DNA of 45,567 nucleotides from a virus. Its lineage: Duplodnaviria > Caudoviricetes. Below the pieces are notes generated by a model. That model made no database searches, was not told the origin of the DNA, and saw only the letters and a list, made by a program, of their open reading frames with translations. How positions within the stretch are numbered: position 1 is the stretch's first letter; each line of letters begins with the position of its first letter. Where the stretch lies: positions 1 to 45,567 of the IMG/VR virus record IMGVR_UViG_3300032318_001350, one strand, 5' to 3'. Position numbers and translations under genes: made by a program. Shown piece by piece: positions 7,588 to 39,395 of the stretch.

Positions 7588-8846
7588 GTTTCTTAAAAGA
7601 CTACGCAATATATACCTCCGGCAACGAGGCACCAAAGGTGTTTCACTTTTGGGCGGGGATGATGGCACTTAGTTCTATCATATCCCGCCGAGTCTGTTTC
7701 CGGCTTGGTTACTTCGACATACATCCAAATCTCTACATAGTGCTTGTCGGCACTCCAGGGACTAAGAAAACTACCGCCATGTCAATCTCGAAAGAGATCA
7801 TCCGAGACATTGGCGATATTCCTTATTCCGCGGAGTGCATTACAAAGCAAGCGCTGTGTAAAGAAATGGCTGAGCAATGTGTAAAAACATTCTCTGACAA
7901 GACTGGGGAAATCGTGACATACACTCCTTATTCAATCTTCGCTACTGAGTTATCACACTTTCTCGGTATGGGAACGGCAAAGGAAATGATCGACTTTCTG
8001 ACCACGATCTACGACGAGCGGTTCTACACTACGAAGACTAAAAACAAGGGCAACGATATTATCGTAGGCCCATACATCACCATGCTGGCTTGCACTACGC
8101 CAGACTGGATTCGGGGCTGGATGCGGGAAGACGTCATCACTGGCGGCTTCTCTCGTCGAGCTCTATTCGTCTATTACAACGGATCTCGGGAGCGTATCCC
8201 GATCCCAGAAGTTACCCAGGAAATGCTAGATGCCAGAACCCGCTGTATTAAGTGGGGTAAGTCGTTAGTTAATCTACAGGGTTACTTCGACATCACACCA
8301 GATGCCCTAGAGTTCTACAAAGATTGGTATAAAAAACTAGAAATCCCACAAGATTTTACAGGAGGATATTATGAAAGCAAACACGTTCAAATGCTCAAGT
8401 CAGCAATGCTCATTGCGTTGTCAGAGTCTCACGACCTTGTATTACGAATTGAGCACATCCAACTTGCCTTGGCCCAACTGGAAGTCGTCGAAGCTAATAT
8501 GCGAAAGGTGTTTGAAGGCGTGGGTAGAAATGAGCTCAACGCTATCGCGTCCAAAATTCTTGAAATTGTTGAGGCTTCAGGTGGACATTTGCCAGAGAAG
8601 CAACTCAATCTCATGATGTATCGAGAAGCCAATGCAGAAGAACTATCCAAGGTGATGATACACTTACGCACCACCGAAAGAATAGTCCTTCTGCAGGAGA
8701 CTGTTAAAACAACAGGGAAGATCCGTCAAATTGTTGCGCTGCCTCACGTTGCCTCAAAACTAGCTTCGCCTGGTCAACAGTCAGCGTCGGGTTCTGCTCC
8801 AACAGGAAGTCAAGTTCCATCGCCTTCTGAATCCGGTTCGAAGTAG
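7584..8846 (+). CDS. DUF3987/YfjI-like P-loop NTPase, probable replicative helicase
   Basis: EAP..FH.W, NLYIVLVGTPGTKKT Walker A, TMLACTTP, GGFSRR; position after polA. Confidence 0.75.
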   Translation: MSFLKDYAIYTSGNEAPKVFHFWAGMMALSSIISRRVCFRLGYFDIHPNLYIVLVGTPGTKKTTAMSISKEIIRDIGDIPYSAECITKQALCKEMAEQCVKTFSDKTGEIVTYTPYSIFATELSHFLGMGTAKEMIDFLTTIYDERFYTTKTKNKGNDIIVGPYITMLACTTPDWIRGWMREDVITGGFSRRALFVYYNGSRERIPIPEVTQEMLDARTRCIKWGKSLVNLQGYFDITPDALEFYKDWYKKLEIPQDFTGGYYESKHVQMLKSAMLIALSESHDLVLRIEHIQLALAQLEVVEANMRKVFEGVGRNELNAIASKILEIVEASGGHLPEKQLNLMMYREANAEELSKVMIHLRTTERIVLLQETVKTTGKIRQIVALPHVASKLASPGQQSASGSAPTGSQVPSPSESGSK

Positions 8847-14800: not shown

Positions 14801-17787
14801 ACAGTATCCTGATACTGCAGCAAGGCTTCTTGCGCATCACGAGCTTGCCTGATTTTTGCAGCGTCTTCGGGCAAAGAAAAATACACCGAAGGATCTTTAC
14901 GGGTTAGGTCAAATAAGCGACCAGTCACTCGTTGACCGGATACTTTATGGGCACCTAGATCAATAGGAGTTCCTTGTCCACCAAGAAGTTTTGTAGCTGT
15001 ATTAGGTATTGTTGCGTCGTAGTGCAAACGCATACCAGCATCTTGCTTTGGAACAAATCCAGAAATAGGAGCGAGCATTAGCCGGGCGCCTTCAAAATCA
15101 TTCCAGAGGCTTGTCTTACCCAAAGCTCGCATGGTCTCATTATCAGCCTTTCGTTGGCCAGGATTACTTGGATCAATTCCCTCGATTTTATAGAACTGCC
15201 CTGTTTTGGTATCAAGAAGAGATATACCTAAAGGATCTGTCACATCAACGCTGCCAACACTACCTTCTTTCATCCGCATTTTTTGCTGCAAAGAAAGGTT
15301 TGACCATTCAGATCGCTTGGTAAGAATAAAACCTTCCGGTAGTTGTTCTGACCGCAAGGTAGCACTAATTCTTTGGTTAGGTGAAAAAAGTAAGCTATCG
15401 CGGGAAGCGTTTGCGGACTCAAGAGTAACTGTAAACGGAGACGGAGCCGCTGAAGAGGCTAATTTCGGGACAAGATTTGCTTGCGCAAAATGCCCTTCTG
15501 AATACATTGCAGTTTTTGCGTCAGAGATAACAAGCTTCGTAGCTCCAATATCTTTTGCGTGCTTGATAGCTGCTTGTAAAGCCAGCTGCTCGTAACGAGG
15601 GACAAGATTACGATTAGCACTTTCATACATCGAAGCATCTTGTGGATATCTCGAATTGATTCCTAAAGGAGGTTCTGGGGCCATCCCAACACGAGAGATA
15701 TTCCTATTCGCATCATTTGCCCAGTCACTTTGGAGCTCAATAATATGGAAAGCTTTTTCACCGGAAGGCAGAGTTTCCTCGTATCCACGGAAGAAGCTAA
15801 GGACATTTTTATCCCGACTACCGAAGTGTGGCCCACGATAGAGATCACCAAATTGCTGGGGAACTCGAATAAGCCCCTCAACATAACCTGGCATTTCACT
15901 TTCTTTTTTGGGTGCAATAAACTCATACGTGCGACTACCTCCCATATCATCTTCTACTCCAGCACCGATAGTATCCCAGTAAGGAAGTAAATCAGTAGGA
16001 AGCGTTTCAGGATCAATGTAGTTACCTTCGGAATCTCGAATGGTAGCATTTCCATCCATATGATCTCGGTCTAAAAAATAACCACGGGTCTCTAGTTGAT
16101 GCTGGGCTTCATTTATACTTTGATCTGAAGTCGATCCTTCTGGCTTGTTTCCAGTAAGCAACTCAAAAAGTGGCGGGTTGTTTTTCAGATCAGTAACAAG
16201 ACGCCCCACGTTAACAGAGCCATCTTGACCAAAGGCTTCTGGCGCAAGAACTTTATACATTTCAACTTCGTATTTAGGCACTCCGCCAACCTCCATAGCT
16301 TTTTCAAACTGAACACCGCCAATACTCTGATTTTGATCGAGCGTGTAACGATTGCCGAGCATAATTCTGCCATCAGGCTGTGGACGGAAAAGCTCGCCTA
16401 CGCGATATACCAAAGGAACATCTTTTGACGCTGGAATAACTTCTCCTGTAGTTGAACGAGTCGGCAAAGAAAAATTAGCGTTAACATCAGTTGGTGCCTG
16501 CTCAAACACAAGCCTACCATTTTCAGCATCACTATACAACCCAAGACCAACAATAGTCTGACCATTATCTGTAACCATCTGATTGCCACGCAGCCCAGTA
16601 ATATTAAGCGTAGGGCCGTTCTCGATTTGATAAGCGACTTTTCCTCCGCGTGAAAGAACGTCTTGCACCTGCTGGAAAGCAAACGTCCGAGCGCCTTCGC
16701 GGTTCACTCCAGTAGGTTCAGCGTCATCCGCAAAGAACCTTTTCACAAAAGCGCGATCCATGAATCCCTGCTGACGAACAAGGCCGAGCGGTTCCGCAGG
16801 ATTTGCCGCGGGTAGATCATCAGCGAATTGTTGCACTTTCACAGCTTCATCTACATCATCCGTCAAACTGACGATGCGGCCTGCGGGATCTCGAACCACA
16901 AAGCCACCATCCTCCGAAGCGCGAACCGGAGCTTCCAAACCAGATTGCAATCTTGCAGCAACCTCTTTCTGAACGTTCGCAGCCTCACCGCTGGTAGCGA
17001 TCCTGTTCGGACGAGCGAGCGGGCGGAGCAGCTGTTGCGCATCGAGAGCCGCAAACGGAACATTGCCTGCAATCATGAGTGCAAGGTTCTTCGGATCAAG
17101 CGGATTATAAAGTCCTTGACCGGATGCCACAGATTGAGCTTGCCCAGCAACTTCTCCAACTGCGATAGCGCCAAGGTTTTCCGCACCATATTGAGCGAGC
17201 TTTTGCGTAGTCGTAGCTGGAGCAAGAAACGAGCGACCAAAGAGATCGTCGATGAGGGGAGCGCCCATGCGCTTCAACGCTTGCTGACCGGCCACCCGAG
17301 CAACCCCAAGAGTAGCGGGCATTGCAGCAGCACCGATAAGACCAGCTGTAGGACTACCGCCACTTTTTTCGTAAGCGTCTAGTCCTCCAAGAGCTGCCGA
17401 AGCAGCAAGACCTCCTGCCGCCACCGGAACAGAAAGCGGAGCCGTTAAAAGCATAGGAGCTAGCGTGGCTCCCATGCGAGGAAACGAACGAAACAAGTCG
17501 CCCATCTCGCGTTCCATCCCAATCGCTGAACCAACACCCTTACCAACAAACTCAGAAGCTTGTGGTAATCCAGTATATTCAAGAGCCCGATCAATCCCAG
17601 CACTTGCGCGCATAAGGAAGTTATCATTTTTACCCGCCTCGAACATAGGCTGCTGAGTCTGCTGTTCCATGTAGGAAGAGAACTCAGGTAGTGACATCCG
17701 CTCAAACGCAGGATTCACGGACTTAAAACGCTCGTGAATGTCCTGGATTTGACGAAACTGTAGAGGAGTGTTGGTTTCAGCGATCAT
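8704..17787 (-). CDS. 3027-aa polyvalent internal virion/ejection protein (zincin-like HExxxH, ELQSDW module, PLxRFG-like motif)
   Basis: LWHEGAGHFG...AEEYLA; GPHFG...HIIELQSDW; GYLPEFRLGQY; G/A-rich hydrophobic segments near both ends; last gene of the structural block. Confidence 0.75.
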   Translation of the reverse strand: MIAETNTPLQFRQIQDIHERFKSVNPAFERMSLPEFSSYMEQQTQQPMFEAGKNDNFLMRASAGIDRALEYTGLPQASEFVGKGVGSAIGMEREMGDLFRSFPRMGATLAPMLLTAPLSVPVAAGGLAASAALGGLDAYEKSGGSPTAGLIGAAAMPATLGVARVAGQQALKRMGAPLIDDLFGRSFLAPATTTQKLAQYGAENLGAIAVGEVAGQAQSVASGQGLYNPLDPKNLALMIAGNVPFAALDAQQLLRPLARPNRIATSGEAANVQKEVAARLQSGLEAPVRASEDGGFVVRDPAGRIVSLTDDVDEAVKVQQFADDLPAANPAEPLGLVRQQGFMDRAFVKRFFADDAEPTGVNREGARTFAFQQVQDVLSRGGKVAYQIENGPTLNITGLRGNQMVTDNGQTIVGLGLYSDAENGRLVFEQAPTDVNANFSLPTRSTTGEVIPASKDVPLVYRVGELFRPQPDGRIMLGNRYTLDQNQSIGGVQFEKAMEVGGVPKYEVEMYKVLAPEAFGQDGSVNVGRLVTDLKNNPPLFELLTGNKPEGSTSDQSINEAQHQLETRGYFLDRDHMDGNATIRDSEGNYIDPETLPTDLLPYWDTIGAGVEDDMGGSRTYEFIAPKKESEMPGYVEGLIRVPQQFGDLYRGPHFGSRDKNVLSFFRGYEETLPSGEKAFHIIELQSDWANDANRNISRVGMAPEPPLGINSRYPQDASMYESANRNLVPRYEQLALQAAIKHAKDIGATKLVISDAKTAMYSEGHFAQANLVPKLASSAAPSPFTVTLESANASRDSLLFSPNQRISATLRSEQLPEGFILTKRSEWSNLSLQQKMRMKEGSVGSVDVTDPLGISLLDTKTGQFYKIEGIDPSNPGQRKADNETMRALGKTSLWNDFEGARLMLAPISGFVPKQDAGMRLHYDATIPNTATKLLGGQGTPIDLGAHKVSGQRVTGRLFDLTRKDPSVYFSLPEDAAKIRQARDAQEALLQYQDTVARATGAAPAVADIKTTVTPFLNDWDQRQIGLNNVTPQEAVTRAINVLAGKVDKLAATAKSEAAGQDNIDPVLRAVIEQLPLPYQERAASFIRKYGLSELEGQGLDLDPQMREGLLNRMRTLSEKTTDADVKSAIDQEIEYFQQPRDENYDPDLATLLEDYQPYLELGGGSAQGTAKKDRDISDATNLVYAEVFSQFQKGVAPQDIKLSPGLIISRIKTQGVATDFVPSMKYSEVTGDWEPARLNNKQEAEAFVLKLATDNPDPAVRYQIIQQRTTEDGRDVSYFQVRKKENLLQRIVEGYNPDNTAIFRNLGKEGSPADLGDMDLMEFYDNYGARGDAPMANKGIRGGQQFLADTLHARGMAIADMLPDSAYAAPHREMAKDRLKVILELERNREVFRVDKNGKLKDIDYKTIQEAWSQAGGLEITGREGDIPLMVRRKVESLMKTFSQAAGQDPIMQRLNRNLGEFAQWAREAGPGESPEFFAARRVIDEAVGKLKELNKTVGMVVLPGVGDLRGYNKAMYDAVMKRGGTAEAYFDRKRQEIVIIANNVIQKNGEITLADSMARVLWHEGAGHFGREKMLGNEYNAIMRGVLRKVDDGARKSIMDAYRLKDPNDLLIAEEYLASKAETDPGLSLLGETVGALRSYARAFGKFPFGRDPQKLGETGYKLTDNDILYTVKKSRDYTLGKRGFIPGGTVPDTQTNTMGDEPSGLGVLGKSDYFSLPAQKITTTKLPDAYNFVTGRGLERGLSPEESNRHAENVVRMLTQRPDPTTMVAQGNGLTMASPLGGRAFFKRSKQFQDSVIRAQETSFLHSSFARAIDSAPETSPVRKAANDYDAWFASLKIEDVETLRAGLSAIDPDLLLPDGGINSRALAGFVADAYVAKDVYALRELLQAAPTPVGNLTKALFKDATAMAESSLSLAQAEALGVTEKRGIGMVQRKALERIYDSFIELRKDDASMLKAEQQFLKMENFQPERIIEALAGGNDMAGPLKTIADQAKFSIPTNAYRPVPDKAPTAPGWISRMFNLPSNIAEDYPEFLPFLRTATAYTALSQQAVADAFQPFGLEIQAGKLVKTENYERFKKTVRSPHMRKAISDLMLRQNEKLEKLTQEDIEAEAAGQPPSMKPGDGRLTAVEIRNLRQENTSLRTLSDTDFQSVVAVFEKMTDSAAKMSEVIIRSQASNIANTLRSELATQKGWAGLEEIERASNLAVKYLLDPTTANEWQQNAWKTLSSSDFSEMLAKVDGIYRVPFESFAGYIRKRDGYLPEFRLGQYTIAYKDATTGERKTIGAMDLKEVYAKRKDLYESGAAAAGSVEYLSKKVSRLENSLLSKGALERAKEIEKLAFEQLRGVVGDDVFEAQIRPNYEPVTASIHAETQKTMQDYLRRRTLAGGREDLDAIDVLMSYIPAVAYGTARSNVRQTSAFYLKDARIADNEVLRELATTHINNALRASTGSEKVIREAAFQYFMALNPSTMALELFQSTSSLAPFLTRHGAGFFGSYGELKKSMGQVLQAGRNGKFADLELEAMVDRAADEAIISRGLYQELDDPSGGVTEVQDAVLGVENAGRRFGKAYINATRNLYGMTAHYNSRVAFVAGYNRGKKLGLRGEDLYEFARRTTQATMFTGGKGNRAIGLYAGDASSQPIRAMIGSLQSYFQGMVGTMARYARESVAKDLPPAERAKARKAFLQIMGTQLFYAGAMGLPGAAAAVALMEQMFPELELKKNIEEIPKQVLGDTQFGGWMIDSMLYGVPTSSSPIDVSARMGLGQVLGVSSLTGFDTTALFGPFGSIVSNVAGASQELQEGDLTAAGEKLSPVFMKNLIKSLKDGGAVRDYSGNLVTQMTGSQQVLTSLGFRPKEIADLQQAAASQKRIARIETRRQSQFLKNQAEALINGDVDTVKQMMQERLQEDPTFDARDNARKVSAKAVDMSFPKEIGRGVNVRAADRIAATTGGRQGPRSSEMDRLFARSNFERALGIPGTGAPTSNRIQKAMELDFLLEQNPTLTVDQAKLVLRQREAAQQFDGSSLLF

Positions 17788-20500: not shown

Positions 20501-21498
20501 TAGTAAAAGAAAAGACCAAAAGGGTTTATTGTTAAATTGTTTAAAGAGTTGGATTCATAGCTATAATCTTCCGTGCAGGGCGAAGGGCAAGATCTGGCAT
20601 TATGTATATCGTATATTTTAACTGGTTTAGCAACCCCATCACGGACTTCAAAATCCACACTTGTCTCAGAAGCCGAAAAATCCCATGTATCGCAGGTTAC
20701 TGTTTGTGTAGTATTGTCACCAGGGGAATAGCAGCTCGCCTCTTCTGTTCCATTTCTTAGAATATAAAAATTGTGTCCCGCAAAATAGCCGTTACTACCG
20801 CAGTCGCATCCTCCTACAATACTAATATTAGGGTAGTATTTATTTCCGACTTTAACAACTTGGGGATGGTTTTTAAGCAGACTTGCATCGGTTCCATCTC
20901 CGCCGTAATACGGGTAGTTTAAATAAGCAAATGGCTGGTCAAAAGCTCTAAACTGCCAATAGCCCGGATTAGCTCCATTAGGATAACTATAATCTCTAAA
21001 AGCGCAGACTGTAGAATCCCATGTGCCTATTTGGTAGTAACCATGCCCATATTTACCGCAGCCTTTAAAATCCTCGACTGGATTGCCTATCATATTGGCA
21101 TACATAAGATCGCCGTTATTTAAAATGTCTTCGCAACTGTCATCACCAATTCTTACGTATCTTGGTATGCCTCTAGTTAAAGTCTCGCCTGCATTGGAAG
21201 CGGATTCTCCACCATCAGGACACGTTCCAGATGCGCCTCCCCAATAAATTTGACTGCCTTTCCAGTAAAAATTAACGAGTTCTTGAAGGGTAAACTCAAC
21301 GGGCCATAAACTACCAACGTAGTCTCCACTCCAGTTTACATACCAATTCGGTTGGTAATTGTTTGAACCGTTATACCACTCCACATAGCTATTTGCTATG
21401 TAGTAGTTCAGATCGTCCATAGTCCTGCTATCTGGATCGGTGTCTAAATCTAGAACGCAGAACGGCAAGCTGTCAAAATATGAAAAATTTTCGCTCAT
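20500..21498 (-). CDS. Cys/Tyr/Gly/Asn-rich putative tail tip or receptor-binding protein
   Basis: Aromatic- and Cys-rich, AT-rich DNA, inside the tail block. Confidence 0.55.
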   Translation of the reverse strand: MSENFSYFDSLPFCVLDLDTDPDSRTMDDLNYYIANSYVEWYNGSNNYQPNWYVNWSGDYVGSLWPVEFTLQELVNFYWKGSQIYWGGASGTCPDGGESASNAGETLTRGIPRYVRIGDDSCEDILNNGDLMYANMIGNPVEDFKGCGKYGHGYYQIGTWDSTVCAFRDYSYPNGANPGYWQFRAFDQPFAYLNYPYYGGDGTDASLLKNHPQVVKVGNKYYPNISIVGGCDCGSNGYFAGHNFYILRNGTEEASCYSPGDNTTQTVTCDTWDFSASETSVDFEVRDGVAKPVKIYDIHNARSCPSPCTEDYSYESNSLNNLTINPFGLFFY

Positions 21499-23018
21499 GA
21501 CTGGACTAAAAAGATAGTTGCTTTTCCATCAACGCAACCATGCAAGGAAGTAAATGGTGAGTGGGCATCTTGCCTAAGTTTCCAAGCATCCCCATCTTGA
21601 TACACATAAGCTATTATAGCAGAAACAAAGTTTTGTTCGTTTGTGCTACCATCCCAAGAAGCTCTTTCTGGGGCGGAAACACCCCACTCAATTTCAAAAG
21701 TATCATTGTTAATTTCGGCATCCACTACAGTAGCTTTTAAAGTCACAAATCCAGTTTGAAGATTAGTCCAAGTATCAAGTCCGGTAACTGTGTAGCTACT
21801 AAAAGTGCCTACATTTTTATAAACTTTACTTCCAACCTCAATTTTTCCTTGATAAGTGTTTCCTTCTTTTTTGAGCGTAACTTTCCAAGGATGCGGTGGT
21901 GTGTCACCACCAGCAATATAATAACCATCGTCAGGCGGCAAAGTGCCTTGACGCTCATTCCCTACAGCGCCTTCAATTACAGCGGAGTGCGTGTTATCTA
22001 GACGGGCTAGAATCTTGCGTTCTCCATCTTTTCTCGTAAAAAGAATCGGAATAAAGCCTTTGTAAAAATAGGAAGAATCGCCATTTTGAACAGCGGCTGC
22101 CTGCTCTTTATTCATAACTTCTAGCCGTGCATCATTCGTTCTTTCCGTGTATTTCTTATCTCCTTCGCCTGAGCGTTTACCAGGCTGATCTTCTTCAATA
22201 GCTTTAACTTTTTCTTTGAACTCCTTTTTTTGCTGCTGGTATTCCTTTTGCTCCCGATCTTCCTGCTCGGATCTAGACTCGCCTGGAAGTCGATTTTTTT
22301 CTTGTCCAAACTTAGGCTGATTTTTGCTCGAGTCCCAATCGGAAGTCCCCTTAGTTTCAAGCCAATTAACACCCGTGGCTCCTGGTGTTACGGAAGCAAC
22401 CAGTTGCGCTTGTAGCTGAGGCGTTATTGCTGGTGGGGTATATCCAGATGGATTCGCCGAAGTTGCCGCATTAGTAACTCGGTCGTAAGATTCTTTTTCT
22501 TCTTTGCTAGCCAAGGCAGATGGCTTATATTCAGGATCAGCTTGAATACGCCTTGCTGTCCTCGCATCCATTTCTTCCTCGTTGCGAGCAGCTGAGGTCT
22601 TGGGCGCATTACGAGCTGCCGATGCCGCTTCCATTTCCTGTAACGTGGTTACGGAACCAGTTGTAGGCGGCTGCACGATAGGAACTACCGGTGGTTGTGG
22701 AACAGGATTAAGCTGCGCAAACTGAGCAGACGCTGGCGGCTGCGTTGGGATTTCAAACGAGATTTTTGCTCCATTAACTTCTGGGCTTTGTCCGTTAATT
22801 GTGATCGTTTTAGCCTGATCACGAAACGTCGAAAGGGCAATATCTCTAACTGTATCCTCAATGTTAGGTGGAATATAAACAGGAAGCTGAGGCAACCTCG
22901 GCGGAGGTGTTTCCGCAAAGGTTCCTGGATCGGTTGCGGCACGATTGATCTGACGATCCGCGATAATATCGGGAGGCCGCTTATCTTCGTTGTCAGGTAT
23001 TGTGCCTACAGTCGACAT
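21495..23018 (-). CDS. putative tail protein (Pro-rich N-terminus, charged middle, beta-rich C-terminal domain starting PPHPWKV)
   Basis: 507-aa coupled ORF in the structural block. Confidence 0.6.
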   Translation of the reverse strand: MSTVGTIPDNEDKRPPDIIADRQINRAATDPGTFAETPPPRLPQLPVYIPPNIEDTVRDIALSTFRDQAKTITINGQSPEVNGAKISFEIPTQPPASAQFAQLNPVPQPPVVPIVQPPTTGSVTTLQEMEAASAARNAPKTSAARNEEEMDARTARRIQADPEYKPSALASKEEKESYDRVTNAATSANPSGYTPPAITPQLQAQLVASVTPGATGVNWLETKGTSDWDSSKNQPKFGQEKNRLPGESRSEQEDREQKEYQQQKKEFKEKVKAIEEDQPGKRSGEGDKKYTERTNDARLEVMNKEQAAAVQNGDSSYFYKGFIPILFTRKDGERKILARLDNTHSAVIEGAVGNERQGTLPPDDGYYIAGGDTPPHPWKVTLKKEGNTYQGKIEVGSKVYKNVGTFSSYTVTGLDTWTNLQTGFVTLKATVVDAEINNDTFEIEWGVSAPERASWDGSTNEQNFVSAIIAYVYQDGDAWKLRQDAHSPFTSLHGCVDGKATIFLVQS

Positions 23019-23668
23019 TAGAGTATACTATTCCCAGCGTGATCGAAAACCGATCCCCAGCAACCTTCGAGCGTATGCGCGAGCGTGTAGTAAGGATCAG
23101 CATGGTAAAGTTTTTTATCGTGGCCCTTGCTCAAAAGCTTTTCGTAAAGATGCTTTGGTTTAGCCTGGATAATCTCACGGCGAATCCAAAAAGATGCACC
23201 AATACTAAGTGGCACATTAGGCCCAATTTCGCCATCTGGCCACATAATGCTCAAGACTTCAAAATGCTCCATTCGAGCACCTTCACGCTCGGGCTTGTTG
23301 TGCTGATTTGGTGAAGGAGCATATTGCTTGCCAAAGTAGGACATCGGCGCACGAAAAGCAGGCCGACCAAAAAGCAGCTCAAGCAACAAGCGATTGTCGC
23401 CCCACATAGCTGCGTGAGGCCAAGGATCACCTTGCAAAAAGCAAACAACCTCGGGAAGGCTGTCATATTTCTCGATGATGTAATTAAGGTAATGACCAGC
23501 CTCGCGTCCAAAGTTATCACGTAGAATTAGCTCGTCCGCGCCTTGTGGTTTGCCGCAGTTATTACTGTTTGAGACCACGATGCGGTATGGCCGCTCTTTT
23601 GGGAGGTATTTGAGCCAGCCTAAATTTTCTCTGTGCGTGGCTAGTAAGATATCGTAGTAGGTTTCCAT
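23018..23668 (-). CDS. DUF3431-like protein (possible glycosyltransferase)
   Basis: RENLGWL...NFGREAGHYLNYIIEKYDSLPEVVCFLQGDP...F..RRE.I...AHTLE..W..VF matches the DUF3431 pattern as I recall it. Confidence 0.75.
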   Translation of the reverse strand: METYYDILLATHRENLGWLKYLPKERPYRIVVSNSNNCGKPQGADELILRDNFGREAGHYLNYIIEKYDSLPEVVCFLQGDPWPHAAMWGDNRLLLELLFGRPAFRAPMSYFGKQYAPSPNQHNKPEREGARMEHFEVLSIMWPDGEIGPNVPLSIGASFWIRREIIQAKPKHLYEKLLSKGHDKKLYHADPYYTLAHTLEGCWGSVFDHAGNSIL

Positions 23669-23685: not shown

Positions 23686-26349
23686 TTATGCGTATTCTGG
23701 GAGATACACCTCGACAATCTCGGTGATCCAGATTCCAAGCTTCCAGTGTTCACTTTGACGCGACACTTCAAGCCAATCCCCAAAAGGCAAGCTAACTGGC
23801 GTTGTTGCGGGGATTGTAAAGTTTCCAGCCATAGACGTAATCGCAAGCTGACTACGCAGGCATTTTGGTAGATTAACACTAAAAAACGTCTTTTGTTTTG
23901 TTGTGCTGATTGAGTTCGAATTACCCTGATTTGTTGAGCTATTCGTGCTCGATGTCGTGCTACTTCCCGTGGACGAACTAGTCGTTGAAGTAGTAGACGT
24001 CCCAGTTCCAGAACTCGTGCTTGCAGTAGTCGAGCTATTTGTTCCAGCGGTAGTTGAGCTGTTCGTCGCGGTGCTTGTGTTGCTGCTAGTCGTCGAAGTC
24101 GTGCTGCTGCCGGTGGAACTTCCTGTAGTCGAAGAAGTCGAAGTCGATGTCCCGCTGCCTGTCGTTGAACTTGTGCTCGATGAAGTTGAGGAGCCAGTGG
24201 AGCTCGTCGTCGAGGAACCCGTCGAACTGCTGGTTGAGCTTCCAGTATTGCTGGTCGTGCTCGAACTAGTGTTGGAACCAGTGGAAGACGATGTATTTGA
24301 TCCAGTTGTGCTCGTAGTTGAGCTACCAGTTGTCGACGAAGTATTACTTCCGGTATTCGAGCTAGTTGAACTAGTCGTTGAGCTGGTTGTGGAACTCCCT
24401 GTCGTGGAAGATGTCGTGCTTCCTGTGTTGCTAGAAGTAGAGCTTGAGGTATTTGAAGTCGTCGAAGTAGTGGTTCCAGACCCTGTCGAACTTGTTGTAG
24501 AGCTAGACGTGTTAGAGCCAGTGCTACTTGTTGTCGAAGAAGAAGTATTACTGCCGGTAGAACTTTGCGTAGTCGAACTCGTTGTAGATGACGTATTGCT
24601 ACCCGTGTTACTGCCTGTTGACGATCCAGTGCTTGAAGCCGTAGAAGACGTTGTGCTGTTACCATCACCATCTGAGTAACGCCATGTTTTATCCCCACCG
24701 CCCACAGTTGGCGCTCCCGTATCACTACTGTTAGTATAGTCGTCACTTTCCCAGACGTTGTTGTTCGTGTTACTTGAAGTGCTTGAGGACGTAGAAGTGC
24801 TTGTAGCAGAACCCGTCGAAGACGAAGTGTTAGAGCTGGTCGATGAGCTGGTGTTGCTACCAGTGCTCGAGCTTGTGCTTGATGCTGTCGTGCTTCCAGT
24901 CGTGCTAGAGGTCGAGCTGGAAGTATTTGAGTTAGTAGAACTCGTCGTGCTTGAGCTAGTCGAAGACGTAGTAGTTGAGCCAGTATTGCTGGAAGTATTT
25001 GACGAAGTATTCGACGAAGTGCTTGACGTTGTAGAACTTGATGTCGAACTACCTGTATTGCTACCTGTGCTAGATGTCGTGTTTGAAGAAGTTGAGCTAC
25101 TCGTATTTGATCCTGTGCTGCTACTTGTAGTTGAGCCGGTGGAAGAAGTTGTGCTGCTTCCAGTATTCGATGAAGTGCTGGATGTCGTATTTGAAGACGT
25201 GCTTGATCCAGTCTGACTAGTCGTTGACGACGTTGTGCTACTTCCAGTCGAACTGTTTGTCGAGCTAGTTGTCGTCGAAGATGTGTTACTTCCAGTAGAA
25301 GATTGCGTCGAGCTGTTTGTCGAGCTACCTGTTGAGGAAGTTGTTCCAGCGTTAGTTGACGTAGAAGTTCCCGAGGAAGTAGAACTTGACGTAGAGGTGT
25401 TTGTCGAAGAAGACGTTGAGCTTTGCGTGGAAGATCCTGTTGACGTATTCGTAGAAGAGGAAGTTCCTGCGTTCGTTGACGAGTTGTTTGAAGTAGACTC
25501 GGTATCTGTTTCCGAGACGCTTTCTGACTGATACTCGACTAAAAGATTATATGGCTCAGGCCGAAGAACTGTTGCCGTGTCAGAAGGATCGAAATCAGCT
25601 GGTGGCCCCAAAGAAAACTTACGTGTATACTTCGCCTTCATCGGGCCATCTGGAGCAACACGCCATTGAGGCACAGCTTGATAACGCTCGGTTCCGATGA
25701 TGTCAAGTCCGATTAAAACATCGGGAAGATTTTCACGCTTGCGGCCATACCAAACTTGATCGTTGGGTAATGCGCCTACTGATGTAGTCGTGCGCCAGGA
25801 GTGCCATTGATCTTTTGGCTCAATTTCCGTGGCAGACAAGCCATCTTGTGAATACCCGCCTTGAGTGCCGGCTTCGACAATTTGCTTTTCATAAACGAAA
25901 GGAACGCCATAACGAGAGTCAATTTGGATACCTTCGAGAATAGGAAATTCAGTGACACGAATGGTTTGTGTCTCGACCATGCCGTTACCCAGCGGTTTTG
26001 CCTCGCTGGAAATAACGCCAAACCCACCAGTAACAGTCGCCGGCTCCTGACCAAGTGTAGTCTCAACATCTGCAACAACCCCACCAAAATCTTGAACGAT
26101 TTGCTGCCCTTCGATTGAGATTGGCAGCTGTGTAATGTCAATATAGGCATTGACTTTACGCCGTTCGTCCGTATGCTCTTGCAAAACAGACGAAGAAATT
26201 AAGCCAGAACCAAGCGCGTCTGGCTCGACTTTTTCATCCACGTTTTGCTTTTCAACGCGGATTTGAAGCTTATTCGTAGCCCAGTTAGGAAGATTACGAT
26301 AATCTCCCTTGAGCTTGTCGATTAACTTTGGCCCTGGATTCTTTGCCAT
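23686..26349 (-). CDS. 887-aa tail-module protein with about 510 aa of Ser/Thr tetrapeptide repeat in two symmetric arms
   Basis: Globular aa 1-274, xSxT repeat aa 275-531, tip aa 532-564, xSxT repeat aa 565-817, globular aa 818-887; TAATG-coupled to the adaptor gene. Confidence 0.85.
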   Translation of the reverse strand: MAKNPGPKLIDKLKGDYRNLPNWATNKLQIRVEKQNVDEKVEPDALGSGLISSSVLQEHTDERRKVNAYIDITQLPISIEGQQIVQDFGGVVADVETTLGQEPATVTGGFGVISSEAKPLGNGMVETQTIRVTEFPILEGIQIDSRYGVPFVYEKQIVEAGTQGGYSQDGLSATEIEPKDQWHSWRTTTSVGALPNDQVWYGRKRENLPDVLIGLDIIGTERYQAVPQWRVAPDGPMKAKYTRKFSLGPPADFDPSDTATVLRPEPYNLLVEYQSESVSETDTESTSNNSSTNAGTSSSTNTSTGSSTQSSTSSSTNTSTSSSTSSGTSTSTNAGTTSSTGSSTNSSTQSSTGSNTSSTTTSSTNSSTGSSTTSSTTSQTGSSTSSNTTSSTSSNTGSSTTSSTGSTTSSSTGSNTSSSTSSNTTSSTGSNTGSSTSSSTTSSTSSNTSSNTSSNTGSTTTSSTSSSTTSSTNSNTSSSTSSTTGSTTASSTSSSTGSNTSSSTSSNTSSSTGSATSTSTSSSTSSNTNNNVWESDDYTNSSDTGAPTVGGGDKTWRYSDGDGNSTTSSTASSTGSSTGSNTGSNTSSTTSSTTQSSTGSNTSSSTTSSTGSNTSSSTTSSTGSGTTTSTTSNTSSSTSSNTGSTTSSTTGSSTTSSTTSSTSSNTGSNTSSTTGSSTTSTTGSNTSSSTGSNTSSSTTSNTGSSTSSSTGSSTTSSTGSSTSSSTSSTTGSGTSTSTSSTTGSSTGSSTTSTTSSNTSTATNSSTTAGTNSSTTASTSSGTGTSTTSTTSSSTGSSTTSSTNSSTNQGNSNSISTTKQKTFFSVNLPKCLRSQLAITSMAGNFTIPATTPVSLPFGDWLEVSRQSEHWKLGIWITEIVEVYLPEYA
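23899..25527 (-). repeat. degenerate 12-bp (4-codon) coding repeat encoding xSxT
   Basis: Thr roughly every 4th residue; synonymous codons are mixed, so no long exact DNA repeats were noticed. Confidence 0.9.
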
Positions 26350-27579: not shown

Positions 27580-28911
27580 TTACGGAGCGTAGTCGCGCAC
27601 GTTTTGGAGATACATATGGCTCTCAGGGAACCGCAACTCCAAACCGGCTTCAGTCAACCACTCATCTTTCCGATAGTCCGCGTCATTCGGCTGACGATTC
27701 TTGAGCAGCTCAGTATCACGGCCATCGAGGTAACGATAGACCAGATTCTGGGCGTCAAGAATCAGCGCGTTATAACGCAGAGTCGGGTTTTGAGTGAACA
27801 ACGGATGCGTCTTGTAGTAGATAGTTCCGAACGGAGTCAGATGCTTCACCACATTCATGCCGTAGGTATCAGTCATAGGCAAATCAGTGTTAAGCACTGA
27901 CTTGCTCTTATAGAGCTGATTGATGACGTTGAGGAAGCCAGAACCACAAAGAACGAGCTTCTCATTGACGGTATTATTCGTCACGCGGAAGACGCGCTCA
28001 AGGTAGGTGTCATATTGCTTCTCAGACAAGGTGCCAGCACTATTCGTGATGATACGCTTGTTGTCGTCACTGTCCAGCGTAGCTGCCGTATTCTCATACG
28101 TCGAGCCGGCTTCCCACTGCTGCAAGAACCACAGGATACCTCCCATAGTGCGCTGCGGCGTGTCCCCACCCGTGTAGAGCGACTTGGTTCCGAAGAGCAT
28201 GGCTTTTTCGATTTCGATCATGTTATTGACCGAAGCTTCTTTTGCCATATCCTTGTAGATACCAGTCTCGTCGAAACGAGCCGAGGTCTTAAGGGCCGTG
28301 CCAGTGATAGTGAACGGAGTGCGGAAGATCTGCGTGTAGTTACCAAGCTCCACAGGGAGATTGTAAATACCGCGAGACGTATCCACAACACCTTCTGCAA
28401 ACGACGAACCAACGACAAGGGCTTCCTTGCCATTGTTAGCAGTCGTATTCAGAACTGTGCTGGACGGAACCTCGAGGAACCGTGCTTCGAACTTATTGGA
28501 ATCCACGACCGAGACGACGACGAGTTTCAAATCAGCCGAACCACTGGTAAGACCAGCGTTGGTGATTTGAACGACGTGACCAGGACGCAGTTTTTCCGTG
28601 CCATTGGCAGCCGTTTTGACGCGGATTGCCAAACCTGCGGTAACAGTGATCGGACTGGAAGCGTCCGTGTTACCGCCCGACGTAGTGAACGGCCCCGCGG
28701 AGTTCGCAGCAGCGGTGACAGTGCTTTGGTCTGCCATGCGCTTCTCGAACCACTTGAACTCGGGGTCGTTTGATTTCTCTTCCTTGAGAAGAGACATGAT
28801 ACCGGTAAGCGGAGCTGCGCCGTTCGGGTAGAAGTAGAAAACACTCCTACGCACGTTTTTAAAGCGCTGCGCCGAATACTTTTCGGTATCCATTAGACCT
28901 AGAATAGCCAT
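27580..28911 (-). CDS. major capsid protein (DUF5309/SU10-like HK97 fold)
   Basis: FKWFE, GSSFAEG, NYTQIFRTPFTITGT, EIEKAMLFG, MGGI, TPFG, EAGLE motifs; follows the scaffold gene. Confidence 0.88.
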   Translation of the reverse strand: MAILGLMDTEKYSAQRFKNVRRSVFYFYPNGAAPLTGIMSLLKEEKSNDPEFKWFEKRMADQSTVTAAANSAGPFTTSGGNTDASSPITVTAGLAIRVKTAANGTEKLRPGHVVQITNAGLTSGSADLKLVVVSVVDSNKFEARFLEVPSSTVLNTTANNGKEALVVGSSFAEGVVDTSRGIYNLPVELGNYTQIFRTPFTITGTALKTSARFDETGIYKDMAKEASVNNMIEIEKAMLFGTKSLYTGGDTPQRTMGGILWFLQQWEAGSTYENTAATLDSDDNKRIITNSAGTLSEKQYDTYLERVFRVTNNTVNEKLVLCGSGFLNVINQLYKSKSVLNTDLPMTDTYGMNVVKHLTPFGTIYYKTHPLFTQNPTLRYNALILDAQNLVYRYLDGRDTELLKNRQPNDADYRKDEWLTEAGLELRFPESHMYLQNVRDYAP

Positions 28912-29829: not shown

Positions 29830-30087
29830 TTACTGTTTTTGTTTTAGAAACTCCTCTACTTCATCCAGAAGCTTTGGAATTCTACGAAGTGCTCGTGCGT
29901 ATCCTTTTTGAAAATTTTCTTCCGTTACGTTATTAGTAGGTTGATTAAGAATTTGCTTTTCTTTCGTTTCAGCTTCCCATTGGAGGGATGAAAGTATTGC
30001 CTTGTGGAGCTGGCTGTTGCGGAGCAGCAGAAGCTCCTGCTGTAGCTGGATCGAGTCCAGCCGCTTGAGGTGTTCCTGGATTTGCAT
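29830..30087 (-). CDS. small helical protein between portal and scaffold
   Basis: 85 aa with ENFQKGYARALRRIP; typical post-portal small gene; overlaps the portal 3' end. Confidence 0.65.
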   Translation of the reverse strand: MQIQEHLKRLDSIQLQQELLLLRNSQLHKAILSSLQWEAETKEKQILNQPTNNVTEENFQKGYARALRRIPKLLDEVEEFLKQKQ

Positions 30088-31867
30088 AAGCTTGTTGAGG
30101 TAGTTTCATTCCTTGAAGGTGCTTAAGTCCACGCAGCTCAAACATACGATCAAGCAATTTACGAGGATCGTAACCAAACATTGGAATCGCTTCAGGCGAA
30201 GACATCATAACTTGTAGCAGCTCGCTAATCTGCTGAGCAATGTAGCCTTTTTCGCTCGGCAAGGTTGCGTCAAAGATCCCGAAGTCGTAGTTACCCACGA
30301 GCATATCGCGGGATACTTTAAAGTAACCATACTCATTTGGATCAGACGCATCGCCCCTCAACCGAACATAAGTTTCCACATCAAGACCATCCCGAAGATT
30401 AGCAATGAGCTTATTAAACATAGGCTCAAGAGCTTGATAATAAATCGTCTGTGCCACAGTCTTAAGCCGGCTAGCCGCATTGAAGTTAACATTTCTTGCC
30501 TCCGTTGCACTTCGGCGTCCCGAAGCATATTGACCAAGTGAGTTTTCTGAGATGCCTGTAACCACCATCATGAGTTCATGCAGGGTTTCAGCGTCTTTCA
30601 CATGGCCTGTTGTTACGTCACTTACTTGCATTTGCTGAACGTAGCGGCGAACGTCTCCACCAGCTGCGCTCATGTTAAGCCTTATGTAGGCACGATCCTG
30701 TTTGAGATCTTCCATCTCAATACCAGTTGGGTCAATAATTACACGATTCTGAATTACGCGACGAACAGAAGTAATATGCGAGTTAATGAACCAAGAAATA
30801 GTCATCTGGAGCATATCCATGAGTTCCGAAAGCGACACGTTAATAAACGTATGCTGATCAGGATTAAACTCGGCAACATCATAAGTAAACTTGTTGTGAA
30901 CGTAGTTCATTGGCTCGACACGAAGAATCGTTTCGTCGTTAGCGTAGGTCACAACGTAAAGAATCGGATAATCTTCTTCGCCCAGCTTTTTGCCGTCCGA
31001 CAGCTCAAAATCAGCGGGGCAAAGCCAAACTTGAGCCTCGGTCACAACGCAAGTTCCTTTCGATTGTCCAACTGGCCCCTTGTCATAAACGTTTTGCGAG
31101 AACAAGCGAGACTTCCTCAACCGGTCGATAAGCACATCTTGGCTCCAACCTTGAATATGTTTTACGCCAGCGATTTTTCCATCGCGTTGCTGCCTTTTAA
31201 GCTCGGTGATCGTATATTCGTCTTCGCTGGCGCAGAACTCGCCCTCTTGAAAACGCGTCAGCGGAACTCGAACGTCAGGGAAGAAGCGATATGGCGAGAC
31301 ATTTTCAATGCGGTTTCCCAAAAAGCGAACCTTTTCCTCATACCCCGCGCCTGGAATCATCGCGCTTCCTTCTACGGGAGTCGATACCCGAACTGTCTCA
31401 ACCTCCCGCGACCAAGTATGTTTGAAGACTCCAAGCGAGAACCGAGCAACATCGGTCAGAAACTGCTTGAGTTTAATCACAAACTGATTCTCATGCAGGT
31501 CGCGAGCAATCAGGGCTTCGGCAAGTTTTGCGGGCAATTCGTCTTCCGGGCCTTTAGGCACAACCTCAACGAGATCTTCCCGCTGGGTGTAAAGCGTAAG
31601 ACAAAACGCCACGAACGTTGAGATTTGGGCGAAGGCAAGCGGAACAACCATTTTCTCGGGTTCCTCTTTCTTACGTGCTTCCAAATCAGCCTTGTCAGGG
31701 TAGCGGTATCCTCTGTAGACATCATCATAGGTGTCCCAGCGAAGGTAATGCTTATTCATCTCGGCGCGGGACAGTTCGACAAGATCCTTGACGTGTTCAA
31801 GAAGAGCTTGGGTAAAGGGACTCGTCTTCCCTTGCTCTAATTCGTTAATAATGCGTTGCTCCATCAT
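29969..31867 (-). CDS. portal protein (start most likely 31867, not 31978)
   Basis: About 630 aa after TerL; VSPYRFFPD, TGISENSLGQ...RRSATEA motifs; ATGA overlap with the TerL stop. Confidence 0.85.
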   Translation of the reverse strand: MMEQRIINELEQGKTSPFTQALLEHVKDLVELSRAEMNKHYLRWDTYDDVYRGYRYPDKADLEARKKEEPEKMVVPLAFAQISTFVAFCLTLYTQREDLVEVVPKGPEDELPAKLAEALIARDLHENQFVIKLKQFLTDVARFSLGVFKHTWSREVETVRVSTPVEGSAMIPGAGYEEKVRFLGNRIENVSPYRFFPDVRVPLTRFQEGEFCASEDEYTITELKRQQRDGKIAGVKHIQGWSQDVLIDRLRKSRLFSQNVYDKGPVGQSKGTCVVTEAQVWLCPADFELSDGKKLGEEDYPILYVVTYANDETILRVEPMNYVHNKFTYDVAEFNPDQHTFINVSLSELMDMLQMTISWFINSHITSVRRVIQNRVIIDPTGIEMEDLKQDRAYIRLNMSAAGGDVRRYVQQMQVSDVTTGHVKDAETLHELMMVVTGISENSLGQYASGRRSATEARNVNFNAASRLKTVAQTIYYQALEPMFNKLIANLRDGLDVETYVRLRGDASDPNEYGYFKVSRDMLVGNYDFGIFDATLPSEKGYIAQQISELLQVMMSSPEAIPMFGYDPRKLLDRMFELRGLKHLQGMKLPQQAYANPGTPQAAGLDPATAGASAAPQQPAPQGNTFIPPMGS

Positions 31868-33375
31868 ATCGAGAAAAGTTCTTTGGTTCCGATTTTTATT
31901 TCCAGTTCGGGTATGGGCGAGCTCGTGCGAGTTGTGTCGAACCAACGCGGCCCTTCTTGAAGGATACGACGAAAGCACTCCATAGCGTGATCGTTTTTAT
32001 CCTTCGGTTTGTTTTCCCGATCTGCCCAAACGTAATGAGCAAATTCAAAAAGTGTGTTGCGCAGCTGACCAGACACATAGATGTGATCTTCTTTACGCAA
32101 CTGTTGGCGAGCCAGCATGATGCCACCAGACAAGTCTTTCGATGCTTTTGTAACGCGAAGACTTTGGCGGGCCATCTCCCGCGCAATGCACTGGCCAGTC
32201 AAGGCGTGCTCAGTAAAGATCCAAGGATCTGCACTAACACGCACACAATTATAGCCAGCAATACGAGTTTTAATGGAATCAACGAGTTCGTCAAGCGGCA
32301 TTGATTTGAAGATTTCATCGTAGAAGAACAGCTGGCCATGTGGGCTAGCTGCACAGAACAAAACCATCGCAGGAGTTTGCGGATGCGGGTCGATGGAAAC
32401 CCAGATAGGCCAATGTTTCGGAGGCAAACTCATGCCTTCCCAACCTTTGGGAGTTTCTTTATACACGTTACGCGAATACGAGAATTCTTTGAAGACCAAT
32501 CCCGACAGCTCGAGGGGAACTCCAAGCAAACGACACTGGCGTTCGTCTTCTGTAAGACTTGCTTCATAATCTTCGATAGCTGCTTTGGAGAGATAGGCAT
32601 TATCATAAGTGGTTCCTCGAATAGCCCAGTGCCGTGGCTTCATGTCCATCTCATCTTCGCCAGGAATACGAGAAAAGAACTTATCATAGATCCAAGGTTC
32701 TTTAAGCGGCGTAAGCGTAAACCAGTCAGAACCACCGCGATCCATCAAGCCACGAGCGGCTGCTTTATACTGATCTTCGCTGCAAGGTTCGTCGATATGA
32801 ATCGCATCCCAGTCAGATGATTCGGAACCTTGCGGGTTCACTTCAAAAGACTTAACTGTATCAAAACGAATAACAGCGCCATTGGTCATTTCCATCATCT
32901 CAATCGCACCAGAATGATTGCGCTTTTTATTCTTAACAAAGCCACGAGGAAGCATACGCCAAAGCTTGCCACGCTCACCACGCTCAGAAGTAAAGATTTC
33001 GTCGACTTTATCCCAGTCAGTTGTGATGATAAGAAGCTTTACAGGTCGTTGAGGTATGCCTGCATAACGAGCAACGTCACCTTCTGGATACCAGCTGCGC
33101 ACACCGCTTACGAAAGCTGCGTCTTCAGCAACACCCATTTGAGACTTGCCAAAGCGGTTACCAGCAAACAAGGCACGATGCTTGTAGTCGCCAGCCCGAT
33201 GGAACTGATCTTGCTTGTCGTGCGGTTTGTAAAAACGCAGCGGATCATCTTGCATAACCTCGAGTTTACCAAGCAAAGCTTTCTTAAGCTGCTGCTTAGC
33301 AGTCACGCGATCTTCGTGTTCAATGTTTGAACCAAAGTCGTCGGTTTCGGTTAGCGTTGAAGACTCTTCAATCAT
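31864..33375 (-). CDS. terL: terminase large subunit
   Basis: YKPHDKQ, AGNRFGKS Walker A, AIHIDE Walker B, TLTP, nuclease SIDPH and DHAMECFR. Confidence 0.92.
   Translation of the reverse strand: MIEESSTLTETDDFGSNIEHEDRVTAKQQLKKALLGKLEVMQDDPLRFYKPHDKQDQFHRAGDYKHRALFAGNRFGKSQMGVAEDAAFVSGVRSWYPEGDVARYAGIPQRPVKLLIITTDWDKVDEIFTSERGERGKLWRMLPRGFVKNKKRNHSGAIEMMEMTNGAVIRFDTVKSFEVNPQGSESSDWDAIHIDEPCSEDQYKAAARGLMDRGGSDWFTLTPLKEPWIYDKFFSRIPGEDEMDMKPRHWAIRGTTYDNAYLSKAAIEDYEASLTEDERQCRLLGVPLELSGLVFKEFSYSRNVYKETPKGWEGMSLPPKHWPIWVSIDPHPQTPAMVLFCAASPHGQLFFYDEIFKSMPLDELVDSIKTRIAGYNCVRVSADPWIFTEHALTGQCIAREMARQSLRVTKASKDLSGGIMLARQQLRKEDHIYVSGQLRNTLFEFAHYVWADRENKPKDKNDHAMECFRRILQEGPRWFDTTRTSSPIPELEIKIGTKELFSI
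33318..33332. promoter_or_regulatory. palindromic site GTTCAA-tgt-TTGAAC
   Basis: Perfect copy in the terL 5' end; 18-bp identity with the 38286-38303 copy. Confidence 0.7.
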
Positions 33376-39170: not shown

Positions 39171-39395
39171 CGTCAGTCTGTCTGTCTGTGCGTCTGTCTA
39201 GTCCATCATGCGGTATGGTCAATGGTATTTCACTGTGACAGGGTGCAGTGAGGTAGCTTTCGGGGGTGTCGTGGGTGTTAGTAGTAAAAAAAAAAAAAAA
39301 AAAAAAATACAGATATATACCCTACCGCTCTGTCGTCCTTTAGAATGTCCCTCACCCCACAATGGCACGAACAGACGGACGGACGGACGGACGAC
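39171..39395. other. candidate replication origin: A22 tract flanked by (GTCT)n / (GACG)n imperfect inverted repeats
   Basis: A22 at 39286-39307; non-coding, between divergent promoter motifs. Confidence 0.45.

What the first reader, a model, noticed from the sequence alone, without database searches (positions are those of the whole stretch)
23686..26349. Symmetric giant Ser/Thr insertion: candidate long beta-hairpin tail tube
Seen: the repeat is organised, not random. Two arms of near-equal length (aa 275-531, 257 aa; aa 565-817, 253 aa) carry a strict xSxT 4-residue period with almost no Pro, charged or bulky residues. They flank a 33-aa tip (VWESDDYTNSSDTGAPTVGGGDKTWRYSDGDGN). The geometry is symmetric about aa ~547 (531+564 = 273+822 = 1095, pairing the flanks NLLVEY and TFFSVN), and rare AGT units occur only toward the outer ends of both arms. 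The gene follows the head-tail adaptor, and I found no T7 gp12/P22 gp10-type nozzle or siphoviral tube/tape-measure gene. Known: the phi29-type lower collar builds its tail tube as a beta-barrel of long, small-polar-rich hairpins. Inference: each subunit donates one ~255-residue antiparallel hairpin to an oligomeric barrel up to ~85 nm long (0.33 nm/residue, shorter if tilted), so repeat number would set tail length without a tape measure.
Basis: partly seen in the sequence, partly recalled or inferred. Interest (0 to 1): 0.9.

Follow-up and report, generated by a model that had tools for sequence, protein, structure and literature searches.

The report
Giant beta-hairpin phage tail barrel
A gene of an uncultured short-tailed phage carries two ~260-residue Ser/Thr arms whose lengths and residue pairing are locked together across dozens of relatives, so they likely zip into one very long hairpin, and a ring of these hairpins would form a 50-75 nm tail tube whose length is set by the hairpin itself.

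Summary
Observation confirmed; interpretation largely supported, with corrections. The 887-aa gene follows an SU10-type adaptor, in the slot where relatives carry a VP1/SU10-type nozzle; the two genes were never found together. Its 257- and 253-aa arms pair in one antiparallel register (i+j=1098, not 1095): 28 Gly:Asn/Gln cross pairs against 8.4 expected. Homologs carry the insertion at the same site, from 13 to about 1,160 aa. Arm2 minus arm1 is 6-14 aa in 25 of 31 non-redundant genes (exactly 10 in 18) while arm1 spans 50-576 aa, and indels are mirrored between arms. A second, one-sided coupling 4-6 residues off, seen in five groups of homologs, points to hairpins packing side by side in a barrel. 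That the barrel is the DNA-conducting tail tube is inferred from gene context (0.6); a solid needle is the main rival (0.25). It would work like the phi29/P68/Andhra lower collar but shows no detectable homology: predicted beta head domain, uncharged arms, 3.5-7 times longer hairpin. Predicted length 47-73 nm here. No structure, cultured phage or host was found.

The parts
23686..26349 (-). 887-aa gene carrying the hairpin insertion; candidate tail tube in the nozzle slot
   Evidence: no hit in PHROGs, Pfam, NCBIfam
25528..26349 (-). N-terminal region aa 1-274: short modules that vary in copy number among homologs, then the N-half of the head domain
   Evidence: 204 homologs at E<=0.001; module copies 1-22 in homologs; beta strands in the model of homolog P0020
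24757..25527 (-). arm 1, aa 275-531, period-4 Ser/Thr; predicted outgoing strand
24658..24756 (-). tip, aa 532-564, with a Gly-Ala-Pro-like motif shared by most long homologs; predicted distal loop
   Evidence: most complex window at 0.45-0.55 of the insertion in 31 of 35 homologs
23899..24657 (-). arm 2, aa 565-817; predicted returning strand, register i+j=1098
23689..23898 (-). C-terminal 70 aa, conserved C-half of the head domain
   Evidence: pLDDT 86-97 for the matching part of P0020
26349..27017 (-). head-tail adaptor, SU10 type
   Evidence: profile of its family matches SU10 adaptor 7z47_A, E 7.6e-6
23018..23668 (-). DUF3431 protein; variable neighbour
   Evidence: PF11913 E 1.8e-12; present in 10 of 22 long-arm loci
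21495..23018 (-). 507-aa protein, constant downstream partner of long-arm genes; candidate tip cap or knob (inferred)
   Evidence: found in every long-arm locus with downstream DNA held, absent from short-hairpin loci L031 and L033; the profile was built from many of these same genes
27580..28911 (-). major capsid protein, SU10 type
   Evidence: PF17236 E 3.9e-36
29969..31978 (-). portal, SU10/P22 type
   Evidence: PF23899 E 1.3e-24, PF16510 E 7.7e-8
8704..17787 (-). 3027-aa protein, likely an ejection protein (inferred from size and place)
   Evidence: NF032893 E 8.4e-37; phrog_11358

Best explanation
The two Ser/Thr arms are length- and register-locked and likely fold as one ~260-residue antiparallel beta-hairpin; copies of the protein likely ring up under the adaptor so that their hairpins would close into a long beta-barrel serving as the DNA-conducting tail tube, with tube length predicted to follow arm length. 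Shown: the locked lengths, mirrored indels, the pairing register, a second coupling 4-6 residues off, and the swap with the nozzle gene. Inferred: hairpin fold (about 0.95), oligomeric barrel (about 0.85), open lumen and tail-tube role (about 0.6 overall), Gly/Ser/Asn face inside and Thr/Ser face outside, capping of the tip by the 507-aa protein. If the 4-residue offset is the stagger between subunits, strands tilt about 55 degrees, the tube is 47-50 nm long, and six subunits give a C-alpha diameter of 30-31 A; with P68-like geometry it is 73 nm.
For: Register: 28 Gly:Asn/Gln pairs at i+j=1098 against 8.4 +/- 2.3 (max 16 of 3,000 unit shuffles; max over registers 17 in 600), Thr:Thr 60 of 61, best or tied in 6 of 6 windows along the arm. 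Family: arm2-arm1 exactly 10 in 19 and 6-14 in 26 of 35 tip-anchored genes, r 0.95; 18 and 25 of 31 non-redundant; contrasts r 0.99, 29 of 29 same sign after dropping three assembly variants. L035 versus L037: extra blocks of 4, 56 and 96 aa at matching distances from the base in both arms. In 27 proteins Gly is 20% of one face and 1% of the other; Gly:Asn 409 against 213 expected. Second coupling: Gly:Gly 11 against 56 at offset -4, 260 against 150 at -6, 57 against 59 at +4; removing -4 or -6 worsens held-out fit in 5 of 5 groups. AlphaFold2 of P0020 puts strands 501-513 and 588-600 at the base of the insertion. Context: of 30 capsid-anchored loci with the adaptor, 21 have a nozzle matching VP1 and SU10 nozzles, 3 have this family, none has both; whole-record searches agree. 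Precedent.
Against: No structure: the full-length single-sequence model failed (pLDDT 29) and most of the P0020 arms are under pLDDT 50. Six of 31 non-redundant genes fall outside 6-14 (differences 49, -2, 82, -7, 19, -20), and contrasts give r 0.80 with all rows. The Gly:Asn/Gln register ranks first in only 9 of 26 homologs and reaches p<0.025 in 14 of 26; removing it improves held-out fit in 2 of 5 groups. The second coupling cannot be seen in the window's gene alone. Six of the 30 adaptor loci have neither gene, and complete genome G012 has neither by profile search. In most long-arm homologs the gene follows fibre-like or endolysin genes, not a detected adaptor. Known tube linings are charged; these arms are not.
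Confidence: 0.6

Rival explanations
1. Same in-register hairpins, but few copies (for example three) wind into a narrow, filled beta-barrel that acts as a needle, spike or fibre shaft, not as a DNA channel.
For: Gly opposite Asn and avoidance of Asn:Asn (8 against 22) could reflect tight packing. A 4-residue stagger with three subunits gives a 15-16 A barrel. Many homologs sit among fibre-like genes. Weak fold scores (Z 5.2-5.3, rmsd 3.1-3.8, 68-71 residues) link the head domain to baseplate chains of Pa193, Milano and Pam3, below the tool's trust level.
Against: The gene replaces the nozzle and no other tube or nozzle candidate was detected. In G006 a short-hairpin homolog is the only gene between the adaptor and three genes ending in a 2515-aa protein.
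Confidence: 0.25
2. The hairpin barrel is real but forms only on infection, or sits elsewhere on the virion, for example as an extensible conduit through the capsule or envelope.
For: The arms are soluble-type small polar residues and largely unfolded in the monomer model; gene position varies among homologs.
Against: No hydrophobic belt in the arms; fixed place behind the adaptor in the window, L003, L031 and L033.
Confidence: 0.1
3. A disordered, mucin-like Ser/Thr stalk, O-glycosylated by the neighbouring DUF3431 protein.
For: About 80% Ser/Thr; DUF3431 is adjacent. Its likeness to glycosyltransferases is recalled, not shown by any search.
Against: No Pro; strict phase; lengths and register locked; DUF3431 missing from 12 of 22 long-arm loci. 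Glycosylation of the Thr/Ser face remains possible as an add-on.
Confidence: 0.03
4. A parallel beta-solenoid of the antifreeze or ice-nucleation kind.
For: Regular Thr spacing; lags 8, 16 and 24 slightly above lags 4, 12 and 20.
Against: Best parallel offset between arms gives 14 Gly:Asn/Gln pairs against 28 antiparallel; a solenoid does not need equal arms or mirrored indels.
Confidence: 0.02

Closest known systems
Lower collar / tail stem of phi29 (gp11), P68 (gp18) and Andhra (gp16)
   Same: A central insertion of two antiparallel strands joined by a distal loop, closing into a barrel tube: 156 residues and 180 A in phi29 (PMC6542822), 108 A with a 30-residue knob-connector loop in P68 (PMC6795507), 128 residues and 150 A in Andhra, where 28 extra residues add about 40 A (10.1101/2022.07.21.500982).
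   Different: No detectable sequence match. Their head domain is alpha-helical and binds the portal; here it is predicted beta and an SU10-type adaptor intervenes. Their lumen is charged; these arms are not. Insertion about 550 aa here and about 1,160 aa in L037, against 128-156. The coupling suggests a stagger of 4, where their 2.84 A per residue fits a stagger of 2.
Nozzles of SU10 (7z47_G) and VP1 (8zkk_O, gp16)
   Same: Same gene slot behind the same kind of adaptor in related phages.
   Different: No profile similarity (hhalign probability 0.13%); never found in the same locus or record.
Tail tubes of N4 (gp54), DEV (gp75) and A1002 (gp37)
   Same: One protein spanning the whole tube, without stacked rings; DEV 330 A (PMC11445570), A1002 about 240 A (PMC13730344).
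   Different: These tubes are alpha-helical; the tube predicted here is beta and longer.
Tape-measure-based long tails (lambda type)
   Same: Tail length encoded by protein length (PMC9022992).
   Different: There a separate ruler templates stacked rings; here the wall itself would be the ruler, and two distant gene segments must change together.

Membership tests
phi29/P68/Andhra lower collar | Central insertion forming two long antiparallel strands with a distal loop | tested here: met
   Register and length locking; base strands in the P0020 model. Sequence-based, not a structure.
phi29/P68/Andhra lower collar | Alpha-helical head domain made of the N- and C-terminal parts | tested here: not met
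   Confident parts of the P0020 model (about 370-480 and 600-661) are strands; predicted model of a homolog.
phi29/P68/Andhra lower collar | Detectable sequence similarity to solved members | tested here: not met
   Profile A2 against PDB sequences: only trypsin-inhibitor noise at E up to 1.
phi29/P68/Andhra lower collar | Shared fold by structure search | tested here: inconclusive
   No Z of 8 or more; the lists were filled by another domain of the 661-aa model.
phi29/P68/Andhra lower collar | Binds the portal directly, no separate adaptor | tested here: not met
   An SU10-type adaptor gene precedes it; binding itself untested.
phi29/P68/Andhra lower collar | Dodecamer, 24 strands, lumen about 32 A | not testable with these tools
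   Geometry allows 3, 6 or 12 subunits.
phi29/P68/Andhra lower collar | Charged tube lining | tested here: not met
   Four acidic residues, all at the base of arm 1, and no basic residue in 510 arm positions.
SU10/VP1-type nozzle | Encoded right behind the adaptor | tested here: met
   Window, L003, L031, L033; not so in most long-arm homologs.
SU10/VP1-type nozzle | Homology to the nozzle family | tested here: not met
   hhalign probability 0.13%; nozzle profile finds nothing in G000 while ringing in G009.
N4/DEV/A1002 tail tube | Alpha-helical tube wall | tested here: not met
   Period 2 and 4 with two faces and antiparallel pairing.
Mucin-like glycosylated stalk | Pro-rich, unphased, free length variation | tested here: not met
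Mucin-like glycosylated stalk | O-glycosylation by a linked enzyme | tested here: inconclusive
   DUF3431 in 10 of 22 loci; no solved relative; three listed papers, all fungal.
Parallel beta-solenoid | Parallel in-register coil repeat | tested here: not met
   Parallel offsets between arms peak at 14 pairs against 28 antiparallel.

The most novel reading that the evidence does not exclude
An undescribed family of phage tails in which the whole tube, up to 100-160 nm in L037, is a single seamless beta-barrel of hairpins with up to about 580 residues per strand, lined only by Gly, Ser and Asn. A Gly:Asn pairing code keeps the strands in register, and tail length evolves by mirrored insertions in two distant parts of one gene, giving siphophage-length tails with no tape measure and no stacked rings.
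Probability: 0.55. Interest if true: 0.9.

Novelty: new variant of a known kind. Interest (0 to 1): 0.8.

Why it matters
Podophage tubes in the papers read reach 11-33 nm. A 50-75 nm tube here, and over 100 nm in relatives, built from one hairpin per subunit would blur the podophage/siphophage divide and give a second way to encode tail length. The family is a natural series from a 13-residue turn to a 1,160-residue hairpin at one site, so the length rule can be tested directly with recombinant protein. It also offers natural sequence rules for very long, uncharged beta-barrels, useful for designing protein nanotubes, and a clear case of paired indel evolution.

Tried and rejected
Single-sequence AlphaFold2 of the full protein: pLDDT 29, unused. 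Four copies of P0020 residues 421-661 in the complex predictor: no verdict, score 0.28 against a mark of 0.42; not used either way. Fold searches of the P0020 model: nothing at E<=0.001 in PDB, one uncharacterised phage protein at E 4.6e-6 with rmsd 40 in the viral library, no Z of 8 or more. Protein atlas blank for the N-terminal region and for the 507-aa protein. No match among 50,697 GenBank phage records and no confirmed locus in genome contigs, so no host. Direct search of viral contigs with the N-terminal region found nothing. No RNA holder listed. The conserved ~320-aa gene near many homologs did not match the adaptor (probability 0.24%; no PDB match). DNA tandem duplication and inverted repeat as causes of the symmetry were rejected. 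Gly:Gln, first pooled with Gly:Asn, is depleted (28 against 61): the signal is Gly:Asn. My recollection that N4-like tubes are beta-barrels was wrong. rang nowhere, controls included, and is not used. Earlier findings of this scan: none.

Full report
Setting. The window is a 45.6-kb virus record, estimated 97% complete. The minus strand carries terminase, an SU10/P22-type portal, an SU10-type capsid protein, a 108-aa gene, a 222-aa gene, the 887-aa gene in question, a DUF3431 gene, ORFs of 507, 332, 273, 186 and 424 aa, and a 3027-aa protein. None of the 30 ORFs scanned hit a sheath, siphoviral tube or tape-measure family. A profile of the 222-aa family matches the SU10 adaptor (7z47_A, E 7.6e-6). 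This is a podophage-type head and neck.

Observation. The repeat is kept at the protein level: no 18-mer recurs in the DNA of the insertion, codons are mixed, and there is no inverted repeat. The run that may be the source holds the stretch in one identical contig, and contigs 90-99% alike from two freshwater studies cover parts of both arms with no listed indels.

A pairing register inside the protein. Laying arm 2 antiparallel on arm 1 gives one outstanding register, i+j=1098: 28 Gly:Asn/Gln pairs against at most 14 at any other even sum scanned, and 8.4 +/- 2.3 in 3,000 shuffles of four-residue units (max 16; best register in 600 shuffles, max 17). Thr faces Thr at 60 of 61 positions, and the register is best or tied in all six windows along the arm. 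The best parallel offset gives 14.

The family. The N-terminal 273 aa found 204 proteins at E<=0.001, of which 150 were listed. Both flanks were located in 97 of 155 sequences; between them lies an insertion of 13 to 557 aa, and the shortest read like plain hairpins. Locus searches added complete long-armed genes. I placed the tip anchor by eye from a Gly-Ala-Pro-like motif in 35 of 37 long genes; P0009 and P0117 had none. Arm 1 spans 50-576 aa; arm 2 minus arm 1 is exactly 10 in 19 of 35 and 6-14 in 26 of 35, r 0.95. In the earlier set of 27, 20 fell in that range against at most 9 in 20,000 permutations. A motif-free check puts the most complex window at 0.45-0.55 of the insertion in 31 of 35.

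Exceptions. P0004 is identical over 789 of 789 residues to the L076 gene but lacks 48 aa of arm 1; L076 has the +10 difference. L042, L043 and L044 are identical except for copy number in a near-perfect DNA repeat in arm 2, which suggests assembly collapse but was not checked with reads. After dropping L042, L044, P0004 and L078, 18 of 31 are exact and 25 of 31 within 6-14; P0008, P0020, P0053, L043, L073 and L083 remain outside. Independent contrasts on a tree of the flanks give r 0.80 with all rows and 0.99 (29 of 29 same sign) without L042, L044 and P0004. Aligning each arm of L035 and L037 separately puts extra blocks of 4, 56 and 96 aa at matching distances from the base in both arms; gap placement in such sequence is soft.

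Two faces and a second neighbour. In 27 proteins (L042-44, L078, P0004, P0008, P0053 and P0020 left out), alternate positions form a Thr/Ser face with 1% Gly and a Ser/Gly/Asn face with 20% Gly. On the latter Gly:Asn is 409 against 213 expected, Asn:Ser 221 against 365, Asn:Asn 8 against 22; without the window's gene the register still leads (0.090 against 0.051-0.068 at 20 other registers). Per protein the signal is uneven: first rank in 9 of 26, p<0.025 in 14 of 26. Beyond this, a one-sided coupling appears: Gly:Gly 11 against 56 and Gly:Thr 150 against 78 at offset -4, Gly:Gly 260 against 150 at -6, nothing comparable at +4. It holds in all five hand-drawn groups, and removing -4 or -6 from a joint model costs 94 and 97 log units, positive in 5 of 5 held-out groups; the main register costs 227 but is negative in 2 of 5. 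A lone hairpin has only direct and +/-2 diagonal neighbours (general beta-sheet geometry, recalled), so I read this as contact with the neighbouring subunit's strand, staggered by about four residues. That is inference; contacts across a narrow barrel could give a similar trace.

Structure prediction. AlphaFold2 on P0020 with 107 sequences gives a confident beta core and strands 501-513 and 588-600 at the base of the insertion; the rest of the arms is under pLDDT 50. Fold searches were inconclusive.

Where it sits. Of 30 capsid-anchored loci with the adaptor, 21 carry behind it a protein family matching the VP1 nozzle (E 3e-17) and SU10 nozzle (E 6e-7), 3 carry this family, 6 neither, none both (12 of the 21 built the nozzle profile). 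Whole-record searches found this family in 0 of 5 nozzle-bearing records and the nozzle in 0 of 7 family-bearing records, with controls ringing. Against an airtight slot argument: complete genome G012 has neither, and in G001, G004 and several other loci the gene follows endolysin or fibre-like genes. G001 and G005 encode proteins of about 3,000 aa or more; none of the 58 ORFs chosen from these and other loci hit a sheath or tube family, and one 464-aa ORF of G004 weakly hit lysin and tape-measure families. The 507-aa family follows long-armed genes and is absent at the short-hairpin loci L031 and L033.

Mechanism. Head domains likely ring up under the adaptor; each subunit sends out one hairpin; the hairpins close into a barrel with the small-residue face likely inside; the conserved tip would dock a cap, by analogy with the 30-residue knob-connector loop of P68. 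With a stagger of 4, tilt is 54-56 degrees, rise 1.8-1.9 A per residue, length 47-50 nm here and 103-109 nm for L037; C-alpha diameters are about 15, 31 and 61 A for 3, 6 and 12 subunits. With the P68 rise of 2.84 A the lengths are 73 and 159 nm. A six-subunit barrel would pass dsDNA only with very small side chains inside, which would explain the composition and fit replacement of a hexameric nozzle; this is a hypothesis. I put the tube at 0.6, a filled needle or fibre at 0.25, a conduit formed later or elsewhere at 0.1.

Comparison with what is known. It works like the lower collars of phi29 (PMC6542822; abstract and passages seen), P68 (PMC6795507; passages) and Andhra (10.1101/2022.07.21.500982; passages), but fails membership on head fold, sequence, adaptor and charge. 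N4, DEV and A1002 tubes are helical (PMC13730344, passages and section 10; PMC11445570, passages; PMC13434306, passages). That A1002 paper lists three kinds of long podophage tail plus its own. Two reviews were seen as passages (PMC9022992; PMC8718954). No supplements were read. Nine full-text searches, judged from listings, showed no description of this family; the library lacks most subscription journals.

Verdict. A real and strongly constrained feature. The giant in-register hairpin is close to certain from sequence, the barrel is likely, and the tail-tube role is the best reading but unproven. New variant of a known kind, reached by an apparently unrelated protein at several times the known length. 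Interest 0.8.

Noticed in passing
L003:12564-14780: Closest syntenic orthologue uses another alphabet: the distal half of arm 1 alternates Gln with Ser/Thr and the start of arm 2 alternates Asn with Ser/Thr; the contig ends inside arm 2.
   Followed up: partly
L042, L043, L044: Arm 1 is nearly all Asn-containing four-residue units and arm 2 nearly all Gly-containing ones, an extreme form of the Gly:Asn pairing; the three assemblies differ only in arm 2 copy number.
   Followed up: partly
P0079, P0007, P0014: A ~45-60-aa module upstream of the head domain is repeated 22, 8 and 6 times; it may form a flexible rope or fibre dock.
   Followed up: no
L026 (G012), L027-L030: Relatives with the same adaptor but neither nozzle nor this family detected; their tail solution is unknown.
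   Followed up: partly
L050:7820-15398 (G001): The module of hairpin gene, two DUF3431 genes, 507-aa homolog and next gene is inverted relative to the rest of the structural genes.
   Followed up: no
window 21495-23018 and homologs: The 507-aa family has conserved short blocks around a highly variable charged, low-complexity middle, 226-754 aa in all.
   Followed up: partly
window 4215-6602: Family A DNA polymerase with an N-terminal uracil-DNA glycosylase-like domain.
   Followed up: no
window 39286-39393: A run of 22 A and a five-copy 4-nt repeat near the point where gene orientation switches.
   Followed up: no
window 23945-25531 (+): Val/Glu/Leu-rich open frames on the plus strand are antisense shadows of the arms.
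   Followed up: no
L014:7476-8136: Two tandem copies of the ~108-aa gene behind the capsid gene.
   Followed up: no
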